From a virus (Duplodnaviria; Heunggongvirae; Uroviricota; Caudoviricetes), in IMG/VR virus record IMGVR_UViG_3300030379_000187: a stretch of 4,160 bases of DNA; one strand, written 5' to 3'. The notes below the pieces were generated by a model. It had not been told where the DNA came from and ran no database searches. It saw only the letters and a list, made by a program, of their open reading frames with translations. Position 1 is the stretch's first letter. The number at the start of each line of letters is the position of its first letter. Shown here piece by piece: positions 1 to 4,160 of the stretch. Position numbers and translations under genes: made by a program.

Positions 1-205
1 CGTCAAAACGACTGGCGATATCGGCTTTGGAAAACACCAGCACCTGTTCACCAAATTCAGCCATGTACTGATTCCGTGTCTTATCTTCATCATCAACAAC
101 GATAAAAATTTTCCCGGTATAGCCAGCACGACGCAACGTCCGGTAAGTCAGAACTTTGTCCGGTCGCCCGTGAGTCAGAATAAAGGCGCAAAAATCATCA
201 CGCAT
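1..205 (-). CDS. Hypothetical phage protein, 5' end only (first ~68 codons; ORF continues past the window start)
   Basis: Minus-strand ATG at 205-203 preceded by a strong SD (GGAGGAGGA, + strand 209-217). The frame stays open to position 1, giving MRDDFCAFILTHGRPDKVLTYRTLRRAGYTGKIFIVVDDEDKTRNQYMAEFGEQVLVFSKADIASRFD... The ATG overlaps the TGA stop (200-198) of the upstream ORF as ATGCGTGA. Absent from the ORF track only because it has no stop inside the window. Function not recognised. Confidence 0.55.
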   Translation of the reverse strand, partial: MRDDFCAFILTHGRPDKVLTYRTLRRAGYTGKIFIVVDDEDKTRNQYMAEFGEQVLVFSKADIASRFD

Positions 206-572
206 ATTCCTCCTCCTCACCACCATGCATGATCTCCACCATGCGCTGCGTCATCCGGACAAATCCATTTTCAATAGCCTGCTGATAATCAATGATCACC
301 AGCGCCGACTCCTCGAAAAAACACTGAATTTCAGAGGGGGCGTGAGCGTAATAGTCCGCAATTCTGCTGAAATTAAACACCGTGTGACGTTCTGCCGCAC
401 ACAGGAGGAATTTCTCAATATCAGGCTCAAGGGACGCCGAACGTATCCGGCTGAGTTTTCGTATCGTCGTACAGTTCACTGATATCCGGTTTACCGCCCG
501 ACGGCTCATAAACAGGCGTATCAATTTTCGTCGTATACGGCTCCTCCTCATTTCCTGTACCGGGCAAAACAT
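198..572 (-). CDS. Small ORF of unknown function with uncertain start; possibly a frameshifted remnant or an overlapping gene (by position may correspond to ydaY of Rac)
   Basis: ORF-track frame 198-572. The first ~49 codons overlap the acidic 3' end of the ParB-like gene and translate as an Arg/Ser-rich string typical of out-of-frame reading, so only about 206-426 looks like real coding. No ATG lies between the upstream stop (427) and codon 107; the only in-frame ATGs (572, 551, 509) need an overlap of 83 nt or more, and the alternative is a GTG at 380-378 without a clear SD. Its stop overlaps the start of the next gene, which argues that it is translated. Confidence 0.4.
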   Translation of the reverse strand: MFCPVQEMRRSRIRRKLIRLFMSRRAVNRISVNCTTIRKLSRIRSASLEPDIEKFLLCAAERHTVFNFSRIADYYAHAPSEIQCFFEESALVIIDYQQAIENGFVRMTQRMVEIMHGGEEEEYA

Positions 573-978
573 CCGTCAACAGTTCATCAATTTCTGTCGG
601 GATGAAGCCTGTCAGGGAGACATCAAAATCAGCATTGATTAGGTCCGACAGCTCCATCCGCAACAGATCTTCATCCCAGCCAGCATTCATCGGCAGGCGA
701 TTATCTGCCAGGCGGTACGCCTTTTTCTGCTCATCCGTCAGGCCAGACAGAACAATGACCGGAACAGAATCCATTTTGAGCATTTCAGCCGCCATAACAC
801 GACCGTGACCCGCAATAATTTCGCCCTTTTCGTCAATCAGCACCGGATTAGTCCAGCCGAATTGCTTAATACTTTCTACCAGTTGTGCCACCTGCTCAGG
901 GCTGTGCGTCCTGGCGTTGTGCGCATACGGTGACAATTCTTGTAATGGGCGATAGACTATCTTTAATTTCTCGCTCAT
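427..978 (-). CDS. ParB N-terminal (ParB/sulfiredoxin-like) nuclease domain protein, 183 aa, with an acidic low-complexity C-terminal tail
   Basis: ATG at 978-976 with a weak SD (AAGG, 4 nt upstream). The N-terminal ~95 aa (KIVYRPLQELSPYAHNARTHSPEQVAQLVESIKQFGWTNPVLIDEKGEIIAGHGRVMAAEMLKMDSVPVIVLSGLTDEQKKAYRLADNRL) has the layout of the ParB N-terminal domain. The position just downstream of trkG matches where ynaK sits in Rac, but I assign that name only by recalled synteny. Confidence 0.85.
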   Translation of the reverse strand: MSEKLKIVYRPLQELSPYAHNARTHSPEQVAQLVESIKQFGWTNPVLIDEKGEIIAGHGRVMAAEMLKMDSVPVIVLSGLTDEQKKAYRLADNRLPMNAGWDEDLLRMELSDLINADFDVSLTGFIPTEIDELLTDVLPGTGNEEEPYTTKIDTPVYEPSGGKPDISELYDDTKTQPDTFGVP

Positions 979-990
979 ACAGCCTTGCTT

Positions 991-1029
991 TATGAATAAA
1001 ACGCACCCCAGCAGCCAGTGCTACTGGGG
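991..1029 (-). terminator. Candidate intrinsic terminator downstream of trkG
   Basis: Arms at + 1006-1014 and 1021-1029 form a 9-bp stem that is fully paired only in the minus-strand RNA, where position 1012/1023 becomes a G-U wobble (it is a C-A mismatch in the plus-strand RNA). It is followed on the minus strand by UGCGUUUUAUU. The U-tract is separated from the stem by 4 nt, so this is a weak terminator. Confidence 0.3.
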
Positions 1030-1115
1030 ACGGAGGTGTTGCTGGTAAAGTTAGGTATTGGATCAATGAGTGAGTCAACATAATATTAAACTCACAATTA
1101 TAAATCAGCCATATA

Positions 1116-2573
1116 TTAGGAGCGCCAAAAAAAACCTGAAAACAATATAATAACAGGATAAATTTCAAGGCGACCAAGAATCATAGCTATGCACATTAAA
1201 CATTTTGCAATGTCATTAAGCACTCCGAATGACGATGCAGTAGCCCCAAAACCTAATCCCATATTATTAATACATGCAGCCACTGTTGCAAATGATGTAA
1301 GAAAATCATATCCCATACCATTTAACACCAGTATAAAAAACACCGTGAAGAGAGTATAAAGAAAAAAGAAACTCCATACAGACCTCATTACACGATCTGT
1401 AACTATCTTCCCTCCTACATTTACACTCAACAACGCTCTGGGATGAGAAAGCTGATTTATCTCGTGTTTGCTTTGTTTGAAAAGTATAAGAAATCGAAGT
1501 GACTTAATTCCACCACAAGTTGAACCTATACATCCCCCAAAGAAACTTGACAACAGCAAAAACACTATCGTGTGCGTGGGCCAACTTGCATAATCCTGCG
1601 TAGCTAAACCATTATCAGTGAGCATGGAGCTGGCAAGAAAAAACGAATGAATAAAACTTCCATGCAAGTCATACATACCTATATGCCAGACCTGGAAAGA
1701 GGTAACAATGATCACCCCTAAGGCTATTAACAGAAAGAAACGAAGTTCAATATCTCTGATTAAAGGTTTTATCGTTTTCCTGCTAATAACAATATACCAA
1801 AGAGTGAAGTTGAAAGCCGATAGCAGGGAAAAAGAACCAGCCACCAGCTCAACCAAATAGTTATTAAAATATCCGATACTCTCGCTATGAGTTGAGAAAC
1901 CACCAAGCGAAACTGTGGAAATCCCGTGACAAATAGCATCAAACAAAGGCATTCCTGCAAGTCTATAACAGACAATACAAGCAATACCTAATAAAGAATA
2001 AGTTATCCACAGTGTCCGTGACGTATCGGCCAGGCGGGGAGTGAGTTTGTCATCCTTAAATGGCCCCGGCATTTCTGACTGATAAAGCTTTGCACCACCA
2101 ATACCCAATAATGGCAATACAGCAACCGCCAGAACAATAACTCCTAAACCACCTATAAAATTTAACTGTGACCGATAGTACAAATATGCCCGAGGTAATG
2201 AACTAACATCATCAATTACAGTTGCTCCTGTTGTTGTTATTCCAGAAACCCCTTCAAACAGAGCATCAATGAACGTTAAATTAAGTTCTGAGTCAATCCA
2301 TAAAGGGAATGCACTAATAACAGAAAACAAAATCCAAAACATTACAATTATAATAAACCCATCACGGGTACGTAATTGAATGCCAGATTTCTTAGTTGTA
2401 TACCACGCTCCGCCACCAATGCAAAAAAATATAACGAAAGTTATAAAGAAAACGAACAGGCTTTTTTCTTTATAAAACAATGCTACAACCATTGGTGGCA
2501 ACATTGAAAGACTATAGAGCCAAACCAGGAACCCACACATATGAGTAACAACTCTTACATGAGATGTATTCAT
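1116..2573 (-). CDS. trkG: TrkH/TrkG-family potassium uptake protein, 485 aa from the ATG at 2573; Rac-prophage-type trkG
   Basis: Polytopic membrane protein carrying the four pore-loop glycine motifs of the TrkH/KtrB superfamily (GITTTGATV, TVSLGGFST, MLTDNGLAT, NNMGLGFGA) and aligning with recalled E. coli TrkH along its length. The sequence from MNTSHVRVV onward matches my recollection of TrkG. The ORF-track start at 2591 is a TTG; the ATG at 2573-2571 gives the expected 485 aa. The gene is visibly AT-rich compared with its neighbours and lies directly downstream of Rz/Rz1, as trkG does in Rac. Confidence 0.9.
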   Translation of the reverse strand: MNTSHVRVVTHMCGFLVWLYSLSMLPPMVVALFYKEKSLFVFFITFVIFFCIGGGAWYTTKKSGIQLRTRDGFIIIVMFWILFSVISAFPLWIDSELNLTFIDALFEGVSGITTTGATVIDDVSSLPRAYLYYRSQLNFIGGLGVIVLAVAVLPLLGIGGAKLYQSEMPGPFKDDKLTPRLADTSRTLWITYSLLGIACIVCYRLAGMPLFDAICHGISTVSLGGFSTHSESIGYFNNYLVELVAGSFSLLSAFNFTLWYIVISRKTIKPLIRDIELRFFLLIALGVIIVTSFQVWHIGMYDLHGSFIHSFFLASSMLTDNGLATQDYASWPTHTIVFLLLSSFFGGCIGSTCGGIKSLRFLILFKQSKHEINQLSHPRALLSVNVGGKIVTDRVMRSVWSFFFLYTLFTVFFILVLNGMGYDFLTSFATVAACINNMGLGFGATASSFGVLNDIAKCLMCIAMILGRLEIYPVIILFSGFFWRS

Positions 2574-2710
2574 ATCTAAATATTCTTTCAATTATAACCA
2601 CCTTGCTGCAATATTATGATTATACTGTATAAAATTTAACTCCTCTTAGATCTTACTTCACTGTTCCTTATGAAACAATCATCAAAATGAATCATATTGT
2701 AGTTAAGATT
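2574..2710 (-). promoter_or_regulatory. AT-rich intergenic region upstream of trkG; probable autonomous promoter region (no precise -35/-10 assigned)
   Basis: 137-bp very AT-rich spacer between the Rz stop and the trkG start. The minus strand has two TATAAT hexamers (complement of + 2617-2622 and 2592-2597), but neither has a convincing -35 at 17 bp. The trkG SD is weak (GAAAGAA). Confidence 0.3.
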
Positions 2711-3175
2711 TTACTTTAAACACTGCTCGGTTATGTATTGCTGAGCACCTTCAAGTTGGGCCTGCATCATTACCAGTCGTTCCCGGAGGGTGAAATAATC
2801 CCGTTCAGCGGTGTCTGCCAGTCGGGGGGAGGCTGCATTATCCACGCCGGAGGCGGTGGTGGCTTCACGCACTGACTGACAGACTGCTTTGATGTGCAAC
2901 CGACGACGACCAGCGGCAACATCATCACGCAGAGCATCATTTTCAGCTTTCGCATCAGCTAACTCCTTCGTGTATTTTGCATCGAGCGCAGCAACATCAC
3001 GCTGACGCATCTGCATGTCAGTAATTGCCGCGTTCGCCAGCTTCAGTTCTCTGGCATTTTTGTCGCGCTGGGCTTTGTAGGTAATGGCGTTATCACGGTA
3101 ATGATTAACAGCCCATGACAGGCAGACGATGATGCAGATAACCAGAGCGGAGATAATCGCGGTTACTCTGTTCAT
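2711..3175 (-). CDS. Rz: Rz-type i-spanin (inner-membrane spanin subunit), 154 aa from the ATG at 3175
   Basis: N-terminal TM anchor ([20 protein letters not shown]) followed by a charged, coiled-coil-like periplasmic domain, and an Rz1 ORF embedded in the +1 frame. The ATG at 3175-3173 overlaps the endolysin TGA (3174-3172) as ATGA, with GGGG 6 nt upstream. The ORF-track start at 3187 is a GTG and is less likely. Confidence 0.85.
2770..2955 (-). CDS. Rz1: Rz1-type o-spanin, outer-membrane lipoprotein, 61 aa, embedded out of frame within Rz
   Basis: ATG at 2955-2953 with a near-consensus SD (AAGGAG, 7 nt upstream). Signal peptide plus lipobox ([19 protein letters not shown]|C) and a proline-rich mature part ([16 protein letters not shown]). 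Lies wholly inside the Rz ORF in a different frame, the classic Rz/Rz1 arrangement. Confidence 0.85.
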
Positions 3176-3669
3176 TGCTGACCCCACAAACAGATTTCAC
3201 GCTCAATCTCACGACGAGTCATGAGACCTTTCCATTGCTTACCGCCAGCATATGTCCAGCGACGTAGCTGATCACATGCGCCTTTGATATCGCCCTGGTT
3301 TATTTTGCGAAGAAGCGTCGATGTTCTGAAATTGCCAGCACCCACGTTGTAAACGAATGAGTAAAGAGCGCCGCGCATTGTTTCCGGTATATCGACTTTG
3401 ATGTACGGGTTAATTTGTCTGGCGACCGTGGCAAGGTCTTTATTCAAGAGTGTTTTGCATTCTGCTTTGGTATACGTTTTACCGAGCATGATGTCTTTTC
3501 CTGTATGCCCGTGACATACAGTCCATACACCAACAATATCTTTGTATGGTATGTAGCTGACACCTTCCAGACCATCGTTACCACTTGGGCCAGTGATTAA
3601 CACTGATGCTATAGCAATTGCTCCGCCACCAATAGCAGCAGCAACGGCTTTTCGTAATGATGGAGGCAT
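3172..3669 (-). CDS. R: SAR endolysin (phage-21 R-type lysozyme with N-terminal signal-anchor-release domain), 165 aa
   Basis: N-terminal Gly/Ala-rich weakly hydrophobic segment ([20 protein letters not shown]) typical of a SAR domain, then a lysozyme domain with Glu35, Asp44 and Thr50 at the catalytic-triad positions of the phage 21 endolysin. Near-identical to my recollection of phage 21 R and E. coli prophage lysozymes RrrD/RrrQ. The ATG at 3669-3667 overlaps the holin stop (TAATG), with GAGAGG upstream. Confidence 0.93.
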
Positions 3670-3884
3670 TATTCACCTCTCGCAGCCTTGCGCTTATCTT
3701 CTTTAATCTTGAAATAAAGGTTTGTCAGGTACGTCAGCAGGCCAAATACCAGGCTACCCAGCACACCTATTGCTGCCCACTGTGAGGGCGTGACTTTATC
3801 GAGCAGCTGTAAAAACCAGTAACCGGCACTACCTGCTGAGGTGCCATAGGCGACACCCGTTGTTAACTTATCCATGGATTTCAT
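3669..3884 (-). CDS. S: Class II pinholin (phage-21 S-type), 71 aa, with MKSM dual-start motif (antiholin from Met1, holin from Met4)
   Basis: Two TMDs: a Gly/Ala/Ser-rich TMD1 ([19 protein letters not shown]) and TMD2 ([23 protein letters not shown]), then a basic C-terminal tail ([13 protein letters not shown]). ATG codons at 3884-3882 and 3875-3873 are separated by Lys-Ser, as in S21 71/68. SD GAGGTGGGG lies directly upstream. Closely matches recalled phage 21 S and EssD-type holins. Confidence 0.9.
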
Positions 3885-3996
3885 AACCCCACCTCGCAGA
3901 CAAAGCGGGTGTAAATTGAGGGAATACTACGAAACGTAACAGACTCGGAGTCAGTGAATAACTCAGGTATTGGGTTATCAGCTAATATCGAGACTC

Positions 3997-4029
3997 AAAA
4001 AATGGAAAAACCCGCTCGACGGCGGGTTT
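3997..4029 (-). terminator. tR'-like rho-independent terminator in the late-transcript leader upstream of the lysis genes
   Basis: Minus-strand RNA forms an 8-bp stem (AAACCCGC / GCGGGUUU; + 4008-4015 pairs with 4022-4029) with a 6-nt loop, followed by UUUUUCCAUUUUUU (complement of + 3997-4010). On the plus strand only three T follow the stem, so the orientation matches the lysis genes. It sits about 115-145 bp upstream of the holin start, where lambdoid phages place tR'. Confidence 0.6.
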
Positions 4030-4073
4030 AAGCTGTGTGACGAAGTAACCACTCTTAACAGCATAACCAATTT

Positions 4074-4087
4074 TTTACGTACGTAAA
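4074..4087. repeat. Perfect 14-bp palindrome TTTACGTACGTAAA in the putative late promoter-proximal region
   Basis: Read directly: + 4074-4087 equals its own reverse complement. It lies about 45 bp upstream, in the minus-strand sense, of the tR'-like hairpin. Function unknown. Confidence 0.5.
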
Positions 4088-4160
4088 CCACTAAATGATA
4101 TTTGCGAGAATGCTACCGAGTATTGAAAACACCACTACAAATACATAAGCAAATCTCAAC

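What the first reader, a model, noticed from the sequence alone, without database searches (positions are those of the whole stretch)
979..2710. AT-rich trkG moron in the slot downstream of Rz/Rz1 that bor occupies in lambda
The potassium transporter gene and both flanking spacers are visibly far more AT-rich than the phage genes around them (roughly 35-40% G+C by eye against about 50%; not computed). trkG has its own upstream spacer and a candidate downstream terminator, which is how an independently expressed moron looks. trkG in Rac is established knowledge for E. coli K-12; here it sits beside an apparently intact lysis cassette, so this is probably a more complete Rac-like prophage than the K-12 remnant.
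Basis: partly seen in the sequence, partly recalled or inferred. Interest (0 to 1): 0.4.

Follow-up and report, generated by a model that had tools for sequence, protein, structure and literature searches.

The report
Known AT-rich trkG prophage cargo gene

Summary
Window 979-2710 is 37.3% G+C against 49.1% in each flank. The trkG coding sequence is 38.1% (GC3 32%) and its upstream spacer is 25.5%. The 485-aa product is 100% identical to E. coli K-12 TrkG and 41% identical to chromosomal TrkH.

All genes lie on the minus strand: phage-21-type holin, endolysin, Rz/Rz1, trkG, then a ParB-like ynaK gene. A phage with a near-identical lysis cassette (PhiR26_1) carries bor at the same position, so the "bor slot" reading is right.

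Low G+C, prophage location, H-NS repression and independent promoter activity of trkG are all published. The finding is therefore already known.

My refinements:
- The AT-rich trkG-specific DNA is about 1066-2710.
- It always travels with a divergent last 75 nt of Rz; the junction is at 2786.
- The downstream hairpin (1006-1029) is real, but it is homologous to an element in trkG-less relatives, so it is not the insert's own terminator.
- The closest complete contexts are lambda-type prophages at other attachment sites. Only their late region is Rac-like.
- About 28-30% of complete E. coli genomes carry the junctions.
- The ynaK-like gene is frameshifted in this window.
- The true trkG start is probably a TTG 18 nt upstream of the annotated ATG.

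The parts
3669..3884 (-). Phage-21-type holin S (71 aa, begins MKSM..., i.e. two Met codons at positions 1 and 4)
   Evidence: Full-length Pfam PF04971 match, E = 2e-35. Annotated essD or holin S in relatives.
3172..3669 (-). Endolysin R (165 aa, phage lysozyme, rrrD-like)
   Evidence: Pfam PF00959, E = 2e-45. 99.8% nt identity to phage PhiR26_1 over 2786-4160.
2711..3175 (-). Rz i-spanin gene (ATG at 3175 as annotated in relatives; a longer GTG ORF reaches 3187)
   Evidence: Pfam PF03245, E = 4e-53. rzpD annotation in F404 and H10407.
2770..2955 (-). Rz1 o-spanin lipoprotein gene, embedded in Rz
   Evidence: Pfam PF06085, E = 2e-19.
2711..2786 (-). Divergent 3' end of Rz (47% G+C) that is always linked to trkG. 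2786 is the mosaic junction with bor-carrying phages.
   Evidence: Alignment is 100% identical to PhiR26_1 down to 2786 and only distantly similar after that. In the phage collection this allele occurs only with trkG. Remnants of it lie upstream of the icd-site and E. albertii trkG copies.
2574..2710 (-). AT-rich trkG 5' region (25.5% G+C). Holds two conserved TATAAT hexamers (2624-2619 and 2596-2591), an AAGGTGG Shine-Dalgarno-like site (2604-2598) and an in-frame TTG at 2591. The promoter is inferred to lie here.
   Evidence: A K-12 reporter fragment from inside rzpR to just before the ATG is promoter-active (PMC9898762 text and primers). An RNAP-sigma70 SELEX peak is reported at trkG (PMC5811629).
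1116..2573 (-). trkG coding sequence (485 aa as annotated; 491 aa if the TTG at 2591 is the start)
   Evidence: 100% identical to K-12 TrkG and 41% to TrkH. Pfam PF02386, E = 5e-145. G+C 38.1%.
1066..1115 (-). AT-rich 3' tail of the trkG-specific DNA (26% G+C). The left module boundary is about 1050-1066.
   Evidence: Homology to the icd-site copy ends at 1066. In hand alignment, diverged homology to trkG-less ParB phages reaches to about 1050-1065, while BLAST matches end at 1001-1028. G+C.
992..1029 (-). Terminator-like hairpin (stem 1029..1006) followed by a U-rich tract. It lies in the ParB-side module.
   Evidence: Scan hit. Folding energy -22.8 kcal/mol, z = -3.3. trkG-less phages have a homologous hairpin plus T-run at the same place, with stem changes that keep pairing between L088 and L114.
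427..978 (-). ParB/Srx-like gene (ynaK homologue), frameshifted by an 11-bp deletion near 454/455. The remainder of the intact 263-aa frame continues to the stop at 198.
   Evidence: Pfam PF02195. Alignment with intact copies in 683R6 and F404.
1..205 (-). 5' end of the next late-region gene (311-aa hypothetical or 'GREB1-related' protein in relatives). It runs off the window.
   Evidence: Annotation of F404, hubt-sl and H10407.

Best explanation
The interval holds trkG, the prophage-borne paralogue of the Trk potassium-uptake channel subunit. It is carried as a passenger gene (a moron) in the late region of a mosaic lambdoid prophage, between the spanin genes Rz/Rz1 and a ParB-like gene that precedes the terminase genes.

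About 1.65 kb of foreign, AT-rich DNA (window about 1066-2710) holds an approximately 120-137-nt 5' region, the coding sequence and an approximately 50-nt tail.

In a lysogen the gene is transcribed from a promoter in or just upstream of the AT-rich 5' region. That transcription is partly repressed by H-NS (shown in K-12, inferred here). Transcripts most likely end at the hairpin and U-tract at 1029-992, which belongs to the neighbouring phage module (inferred).

Because trkG points the same way as the late operon, Q-antiterminated late transcription would also read through it during lytic growth (inferred).

The protein joins the host's TrkA and SapD (TrkE) to give Na+-dependent K+ uptake, a lysogenic-conversion function (shown in K-12 for the identical protein).
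For: - Identity: 100% to K-12 TrkG and 41% to TrkH. Full-length TrkH-family Pfam match.
- Composition: 38.1% G+C in the CDS, 25.5% in the 5' spacer and 49.1% in each flank. Rare-codon excess. Protein hydrophobicity does not explain the composition: the Enterobacter homologue, 70% identical, is 56.7% G+C with GC3 72%, and trkH is 53%.
- Position: bor occupies the same place after an identical lysis cassette in PhiR26_1. trkG-less phages carry the same ParB, terminase and head module.
- Independent expression: K-12 Rac keeps only window 725-3155, with no S or R, and its annotation shows no Q gene or late promoter. Even so, trkG is transcribed at trkH-like levels there, is raised in an hns mutant, and its upstream fragment drives luciferase (PMC9898762). 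An RNAP-sigma70 SELEX peak is reported at trkG (PMC5811629), and trkG is listed in the H-NS regulon (PMC5797941).
- The 5' region, with both TATAAT hexamers and the Shine-Dalgarno-like site, is conserved in the 84-89% diverged copies at the icd site and in E. albertii. The regulatory region therefore travels with the gene.
- The hairpin at 1006-1029 is stable.
Against: - No clean empty site was found, meaning the same Rz allele joined directly to the same ParB gene without trkG. Simple insertion therefore cannot be told apart from module exchange.
- Promoter-like matches in the window are no more frequent than in shuffled sequence, and no candidate has a good -35 element.
- The terminator is not part of the AT-rich insert.
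- No transcription data exist for this particular prophage.
- All ten phage-collection records that carry trkG look like in-silico prophage calls (not confirmed for Salmonella phage SPF_0923), so no cultured trkG phage is documented there.
Confidence: 0.9

Rival explanations
1. trkG is not an independently expressed passenger but a working part of the late operon. It would be transcribed only from the Q-dependent late promoter and serve the phage during lytic growth, for example by modulating K+ flux or membrane potential and so the timing of pinholin triggering.
For: - It has the same orientation as S, R and Rz.
- In every context where the upstream contig sequence is available, it remains linked to this Rz 3' allele.
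- The spacer contains no strong consensus promoter.
Against: - K-12 Rac has lost the holin, endolysin and late promoter, yet it still expresses functional trkG at trkH-like levels under H-NS control (PMC9898762).
- Copies survive outside any prophage, in E. albertii between yebY and pphA and at the icd site. That implies a benefit to the host.
- Related phages function without it.
Confidence: 0.05
2. The low G+C is not a mark of foreign origin. It would simply reflect the codon needs of a very hydrophobic membrane protein (Phe, Ile, Leu and Tyr codons are A/T-rich), or mutational decay in a silenced cryptic gene.
For: - TrkG is a polytopic membrane protein.
- GC2 (39.9%) is low, as expected for hydrophobic proteins.
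Against: - GC3 is 32%, against 63% in trkH, which has the same fold and 41% identity.
- The Enterobacter homologue is 70% identical at the protein level and has GC3 of 72%.
- The non-coding spacers are even more AT-rich, at 25-29%.
- The reading frame is intact and identical in thousands of database members, which argues against decay.
Confidence: 0.02
3. trkG arose by duplication or capture of the E. coli chromosomal trkH gene into Rac, as suggested in PMC5811629.
For: - Same family, same length and same partner proteins.
- The paper states the idea by analogy with argF/argI.
Against: - Identity to trkH is only 41%.
- TrkG-type proteins form a separate group. Members in Enterobacter, Buttiauxella, Serratia, Morganella and other genera are 61-79% identical to TrkG, and in the loci examined (Enterobacter, Buttiauxella, Morganella) they have host-like G+C. 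The Enterobacter protein, the one tested, is 41% identical to TrkH.
- The donor was therefore a TrkG-type gene from another, unidentified lineage.
Confidence: 0.02

Closest known systems
trkG locus of the cryptic Rac prophage of E. coli K-12 (rzpR'-rzoR-trkG-ynaK'-ydaY)
   Same: The DNA is 99.55% identical over window 725-3155 and the TrkG protein is identical. The Rz 3' end, both spacers, the hairpin and the start of ynaK are all the same.
   Different: K-12 lacks the holin, the endolysin and the first approximately 30 nt of Rz, and its ynaK is truncated after 254 nt and fused to ydaY-side DNA. The window keeps the whole lysis cassette and a longer, though frameshifted, ParB-like gene. The closest complete relatives have lambda-type early regions at other attachment sites, not recET and ttcA.
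bor of phage lambda and relatives (lysogenic-conversion moron downstream of Rz/Rz1)
   Same: It occupies the same slot. In PhiR26_1, bor directly follows an Rz that is identical to the window's down to position 2786. Like trkG, it is an accessory gene not needed for phage growth (lysogen expression of bor is from my own knowledge of the literature).
   Different: bor is a small lipoprotein gene on the opposite strand. trkG is a 1.46-kb channel gene on the late-gene strand. The DNA downstream also differs: lambda-type Nu1/A terminase against a ParB-like gene plus P22-like head genes.
Chromosomal TrkH (E. coli core K+ transporter subunit)
   Same: Same Pfam family (PF02386), same length and the same TrkA/SapD partners (the partners are from published work, PMC9898762).
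   Different: Only 41% identical. TrkH is 53% G+C and lies in a core-genome location between yigZ and hemG. It is not H-NS regulated and its K+ uptake is Na+-independent (PMC9898762).
Chromosomal TrkG-type genes of other Enterobacterales (Enterobacter, Buttiauxella, Morganella, Serratia and others)
   Same: 61-79% protein identity over the full length. Many are 491 aa long, with an N-terminal extension that matches the TTG-initiated frame in E. coli.
   Different: In the three genera whose loci were examined, G+C is host-like (47-57%). In Enterobacter the gene lies in a non-phage neighbourhood between a radical-SAM gene and a multicopper-oxidase (sufI/ftsP-like) gene, followed by acyltransferase (plsC-like) and topoisomerase IV subunit A (parC-like) genes, as judged from Pfam hits. 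None is close enough, or AT-rich enough, to be the donor.

Membership tests
TrkG (prophage-borne Trk K+ transporter of E. coli) | Protein sequence matches K-12 TrkG rather than TrkH | tested here: met
   485/485 identical to NP_415881 as translated from NC_000913. 197/482 (41%) identical to TrkH. The score against the NCBIfam TrkH equivalog (450 bits) is far below its 866-bit cut-off.
TrkG (prophage-borne Trk K+ transporter of E. coli) | Full-length TrkH-family cation-transport domain | tested here: met
   PF02386, residues 40-483, E = 5e-145. TIGR00933 scores above its cut-off.
TrkG (prophage-borne Trk K+ transporter of E. coli) | Low G+C (about 38%) and a lambdoid-prophage location between Rz/Rz1 and ynaK | tested here: met
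   38.1% G+C. Gene order confirmed against K-12, F404 and H10407.
TrkG (prophage-borne Trk K+ transporter of E. coli) | Na+-dependent K+ uptake together with TrkA and SapD | not testable with these tools
   Shown experimentally for the identical K-12 protein (PMC9898762).
Phage moron (Hendrix/Juhala sense) | Present in some and absent from other closely related phages, at one position between conserved genes | tested here: inconclusive
   bor replaces it after an identical lysis cassette, and 9 of 80 ParB-module viral contigs plus the prophage of E. coli strain hubt-sl lack it. However, no genome was found with both flanks the same and trkG simply missing.
Phage moron (Hendrix/Juhala sense) | Nucleotide composition distinct from the surrounding phage genes | tested here: met
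   36.7% G+C for 1066-2710 against 49.1% in the flanks, with an abrupt change at the Rz stop codon.
Phage moron (Hendrix/Juhala sense) | Own promoter that allows expression from the repressed prophage | tested here: inconclusive
   Sequence alone gives only weak candidates. Published K-12 data (reporter fusion, SELEX peak, qRT-PCR) support a promoter within the region corresponding to window about 2574-3085. The 5' region is conserved in diverged copies.
Phage moron (Hendrix/Juhala sense) | Own downstream terminator | tested here: not met
   A stable hairpin with a U-tract exists at 1029-992. It is homologous to an element found in front of the ParB gene in trkG-less phages, and the icd-site copy of the trkG module ends at 1066, before reaching it.
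Rac prophage | Integration at ttcA with intR, recET, racR and ydaS/T early genes | not testable with these tools
   The window holds only late-region DNA. The closest complete relatives (99.3-99.4% over the window) are at dsdC and at the ybhC-side lambda attachment site, and carry the Red recombination genes (bet, exo) and the O/P replication genes. Only the late and structural module is shared with Rac.

The most novel reading that the evidence does not exclude
Window about 1066-2786 (the last 75 nt of a divergent Rz allele, the AT-rich leader, trkG and a 50-nt tail) may be a discrete cassette that entered Escherichia once, downstream of a phage Rz gene, and has since moved or survived as a block.

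The icd/e14-site copy (89% nt identity) ends at 1066 and 2784. Those are the same two points where the window's homology to trkG-less ParB phages and to bor phages breaks. The E. albertii chromosomal copy still carries 43 nt of Rz.

This could point to a recombination hotspot in the Rz 3' end. More speculatively, it could point to a functional coupling between TrkG and spanin or pinholin-mediated lysis.
Probability: 0.12. Interest if true: 0.3.

Novelty: already known. Interest (0 to 1): 0.1.

Why it matters
It matters little beyond correct annotation. trkG is a classic example of a host-beneficial gene delivered by a lambdoid prophage and partly silenced by H-NS.

The window shows the gene in a fuller phage context than K-12 does. 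That context is common: roughly 28-30% of complete E. coli genomes carry the trkG junctions, and 681 of 5,426 carry at least 80% of the whole window.

The useful by-products are a sharper map of the module boundaries, evidence that the Rz-trkG junction predates all AT-rich Escherichia trkG copies, and a probable correction of the start codon.

Tried and rejected
- Empty site. I looked for the same Rz allele joined to the same ParB gene without trkG. None turned up in the phage collection, in the sampled partial matches from E. coli genomes, or among 80 IMG/VR contigs. The trkG-less relatives found all have a different lysis cassette.
- Transposon-like ends. I searched for terminal direct or inverted repeats at the module ends, about 1066 and 2786. 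Only short matches of the kind expected by chance in AT-rich DNA appeared.
- Promoter. A consensus scan and a simple position-weight-matrix scan gave several weak hits and no clear winner.
- Donor. The nearest non-Escherichia proteins are at most 77% identical, and the E. fergusonii, Citrobacter and Enterobacter homologues checked are 42-57% G+C. The AT-rich donor remains unidentified.
- Known RNAs. An Rfam scan of the window found nothing above threshold.
- Original paper. I could not read Schlosser et al. 1991 because it is not held. Its content is cited through PMC9898762.
- Viability. The 'phage' records that carry trkG come from a study of prophages located in clinical isolates, so they do not show that such phages are viable.
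Full report
**Anatomy.** Every gene in the 4160-base window is on the minus strand. In order of transcription they are:
- a phage-21-type holin (3884..3669);
- a phage lysozyme (3669..3172);
- Rz (3175..2711) with the embedded Rz1 (2955..2770);
- a 137-nt spacer;
- a 485-aa TrkH-family gene (2573..1116);
- a second 137-nt spacer;
- a ParB/Srx-like gene (978..427);
- the start of a further gene that runs off the window.

**Observation.**
- The finding interval 979-2710 is 37.3% G+C, and each flank is 49.1%.
- The coding sequence is 38.1%, with GC3 of 32.3%. The neighbouring phage genes have GC3 of 40-54%, and trkH has 62.6%.
- The upstream spacer is 25.5%.
- The downstream spacer is mixed: 1050-1115 is 28.8%, but 979-1049 is 52.1%.
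- The drop in G+C is abrupt at the Rz stop codon.
- Rare codons are in excess: 57 of 485 in trkG, 15 of 483 in trkH and 33 of 577 in the flanking genes.

Only the ynaK-proximal half of the downstream spacer is not AT-rich.

**Identity.** The product is 485/485 identical to K-12 TrkG and 41% identical to K-12 TrkH.

**Context.**
- The whole window matches 681 of 5,426 complete E. coli genomes over at least 80% of its length. The best match is 99.4%.
- Queries spanning each junction show the ynaK-trkG junction in about 1,444-1,615 genomes and the trkG-Rz junction in 1,501 genomes.
- K-12 Rac matches only window 725-3155 (99.55%). It has lost the holin, the endolysin, the start of Rz and the distal part of the ParB-like gene. 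The window is therefore a fuller version of that late region.
- The two closest complete contexts I examined are full-length lambdoid prophages. One lies beside dsdC (strain F404). The other, in ETEC H10407, is bounded on its integrase side by ybhC, the lambda attachment region.
- Both carry lambda-type early genes: the Red recombination genes gam/bet/exo, the O/P replication genes, and cI/cro or HTH repressors. Both also carry a porin gene between Q and S.
- Only their late and structural module (ynaK ... ydaY ... tape measure) corresponds to Rac. Published work already describes rac as mosaic and variable, with trkG among its best-conserved genes (PMC5700373).

**The bor slot.** Phage PhiR26_1 and many phages with 434- or 21-type lysis cassettes match the window from 4160 down to 2786 at 96-99.8%. 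In PhiR26_1, bor follows Rz directly, on the opposite strand. The alignment is identical down to 2786. After that point it continues only as a distantly related Rz 3' end. So trkG does occupy the bor position. The mosaic joint, however, lies 75 nt inside Rz, and also inside the last five codons of Rz1, rather than at the stop codon.

**Module boundaries.**
- In the phage collection, the divergent Rz 3' allele (2711-2786, 47% G+C) is found only next to trkG.
- Among the 80 best IMG/VR contigs encoding the ParB-like protein, about 70 carry trkG and nine lack it. Wherever the contig extends far enough, trkG comes with this Rz. The endolysin and holin beyond Rz vary.
- In the trkG-less contigs, and in the prophage of E. 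coli strain hubt-sl, BLAST homology to the window ends at 1001-1028. Hand alignment shows diverged homology back to about 1050-1065.
- A second trkG lineage sits at the icd/e14 site in strain WL297. It is 96% identical at the protein level and 89% at the nucleotide level. It matches window 1066-2784.
- An E. albertii chromosomal copy lies between yebY and pphA. It is 93% identical at the protein level and 84% at the nucleotide level. It matches window 1112-2753.
- Both of these copies therefore still carry a remnant of the Rz 3' end.

I conclude that the AT-rich trkG-specific DNA is about 1066-2710. The unit that has been inherited together is about 1066-2786. The Rz-trkG junction is older than the divergence of all AT-rich Escherichia trkG copies. 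No terminal repeats mark the ends, and no exact empty site was found. Insertion and module exchange therefore cannot be distinguished.

**Terminator.** It lies in the ParB-side DNA. trkG-less phages have a homologous hairpin with a T-run at the same distance from the ParB start codon. Stem substitutions between contigs L088 and L114 keep the pairing. It probably ends trkG transcripts, but the insert did not bring it.

**Promoter and start codon.**
- Consensus and weight-matrix scans give only weak candidates.
- Two perfect TATAAT hexamers (2624-2619 and 2596-2591) and an AAGGTGG site (2604-2598) are conserved in the diverged icd-site and E. albertii copies.
- Independent expression rests on published K-12 data. 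A fragment running from inside rzpR to just before the ATG drives luciferase. trkG mRNA is at trkH-like levels and rises in an hns mutant (PMC9898762). An RNAP-sigma70 SELEX peak maps to trkG (PMC5811629). trkG is also listed in the H-NS regulon (PMC5797941).
- An in-frame TTG at 2591, six bases after AAGGTGG, would give a 491-aa protein.
- The 491-aa homologues have no Met at the position of the annotated start.
- Citrobacter has CTG at that position but keeps the TTG.
- I therefore think TTG 2591 is the real start.

**Origin.** TrkG-type proteins are widespread in Enterobacterales at 61-79% identity. In Enterobacter, Buttiauxella and Morganella the genes have host-like G+C, and in Enterobacter the neighbours are ordinary chromosomal genes. 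The Enterobacter protein is 41% identical to TrkH. TrkG is therefore an old paralogue, not a recent copy of E. coli trkH. The AT-rich donor was not found.

**Mechanism.**
- Shown elsewhere for the identical protein: TrkG works with the host's TrkA and SapD (TrkE) to give Na+-dependent K+ uptake and can substitute for TrkH (PMC9898762).
- Inferred here: expression in the lysogen from the AT-rich leader under partial H-NS repression; termination at the borrowed hairpin; and read-through by Q-modified polymerase during lytic growth, because the gene is co-oriented with the late operon.

**Comparison and verdict.** The low G+C (38% against 53%), the rac location and the foreign-origin argument go back to Schlosser et al. 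1991, as cited in PMC9898762. H-NS control and promoter activity are also published. The finding is a correct reading of known biology, and its interest is low. The refinements above are minor. The most novel reading still open is that 1066-2786 behaves as a discrete cassette tied to the Rz 3' end. I rate that as unlikely to reflect a special mechanism.

Noticed in passing
window 2585-2606 (minus strand): An in-frame TTG at 2591, preceded by AAGGTGG (2604-2598), would make TrkG 491 aa long (MKEYLDMNTSH...). The 491-aa homologues from Pectobacterium, Pantoea, Enterobacter and Cronobacter have I, L, H or A where the annotated Met1 sits. Citrobacter has CTG there but keeps the TTG. The annotated ATG at 2573 is probably not the true start.
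   Followed up: partly
window about 454/455 (within 198-978, minus strand): An 11-bp deletion (TCAGGAGCTGA, lying between TCAG repeats), relative to 683R6, F404 and H10407, frameshifts the 263-aa ParB/Srx-like gene. The result is a 183-aa ORF (978..427) and an overlapping 124-aa ORF (572..198). None of the 30 best-matching genomes shares the deletion.
   Followed up: yes
L008 (E. coli WL297) 6001-7698; L011 (E. albertii) 5819-7462: Diverged AT-rich trkG copies lie outside recognisable prophages. One is at the icd/e14 site next to an IS5-family remnant. The other is between yebY and pphA in E. albertii. Both still carry a remnant of the Rz 3' end upstream of trkG.
   Followed up: partly
window 1-978 and relatives (L001 19273-20989; Lactobacillus phage phiLdb hits): The ParB/Srx-like gene is followed by a 311-aa gene annotated 'GREB1-related' or, in Lactobacillus phages, 'beta-glucosyl-HMC-alpha-glucosyltransferase'. 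The pair recurs just upstream of the terminase genes in very distant phages (Lactobacillus, with a ParB-like hit also in Haloarcula at about 40% identity). This hints at a conserved two-gene module of unknown role.
   Followed up: no
window 4008-4029 (minus strand); just beyond window end in L001 24469-25551 and L004 5673-6770: A second terminator-like hairpin with a U-tract lies upstream of the holin gene. In the closest relatives an OmpC/OmpD-like porin gene on the opposite strand sits between Q and this region. That is another passenger gene in the same late region.
   Followed up: no
L088/L114 4925-4985 versus window 992-1050: The terminator-like element in front of the ParB gene shows paired stem substitutions between trkG-less lineages (CGUCAUCGGC/GCCGAUAGCG against CACCAACAGC/GCUGUUGGCG). 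In the trkG lineage it is remodelled into a different hairpin. A structure is therefore maintained at this spot.
   Followed up: partly
L027 (Shigella flexneri SFBU0723) 4661-8550: The same S-R-Rz-trkG-ParB block is present at 95% identity with 42 gap openings, and tblastn shows a broken trkG frame. It is apparently a decaying copy, or a low-quality assembly.
   Followed up: no
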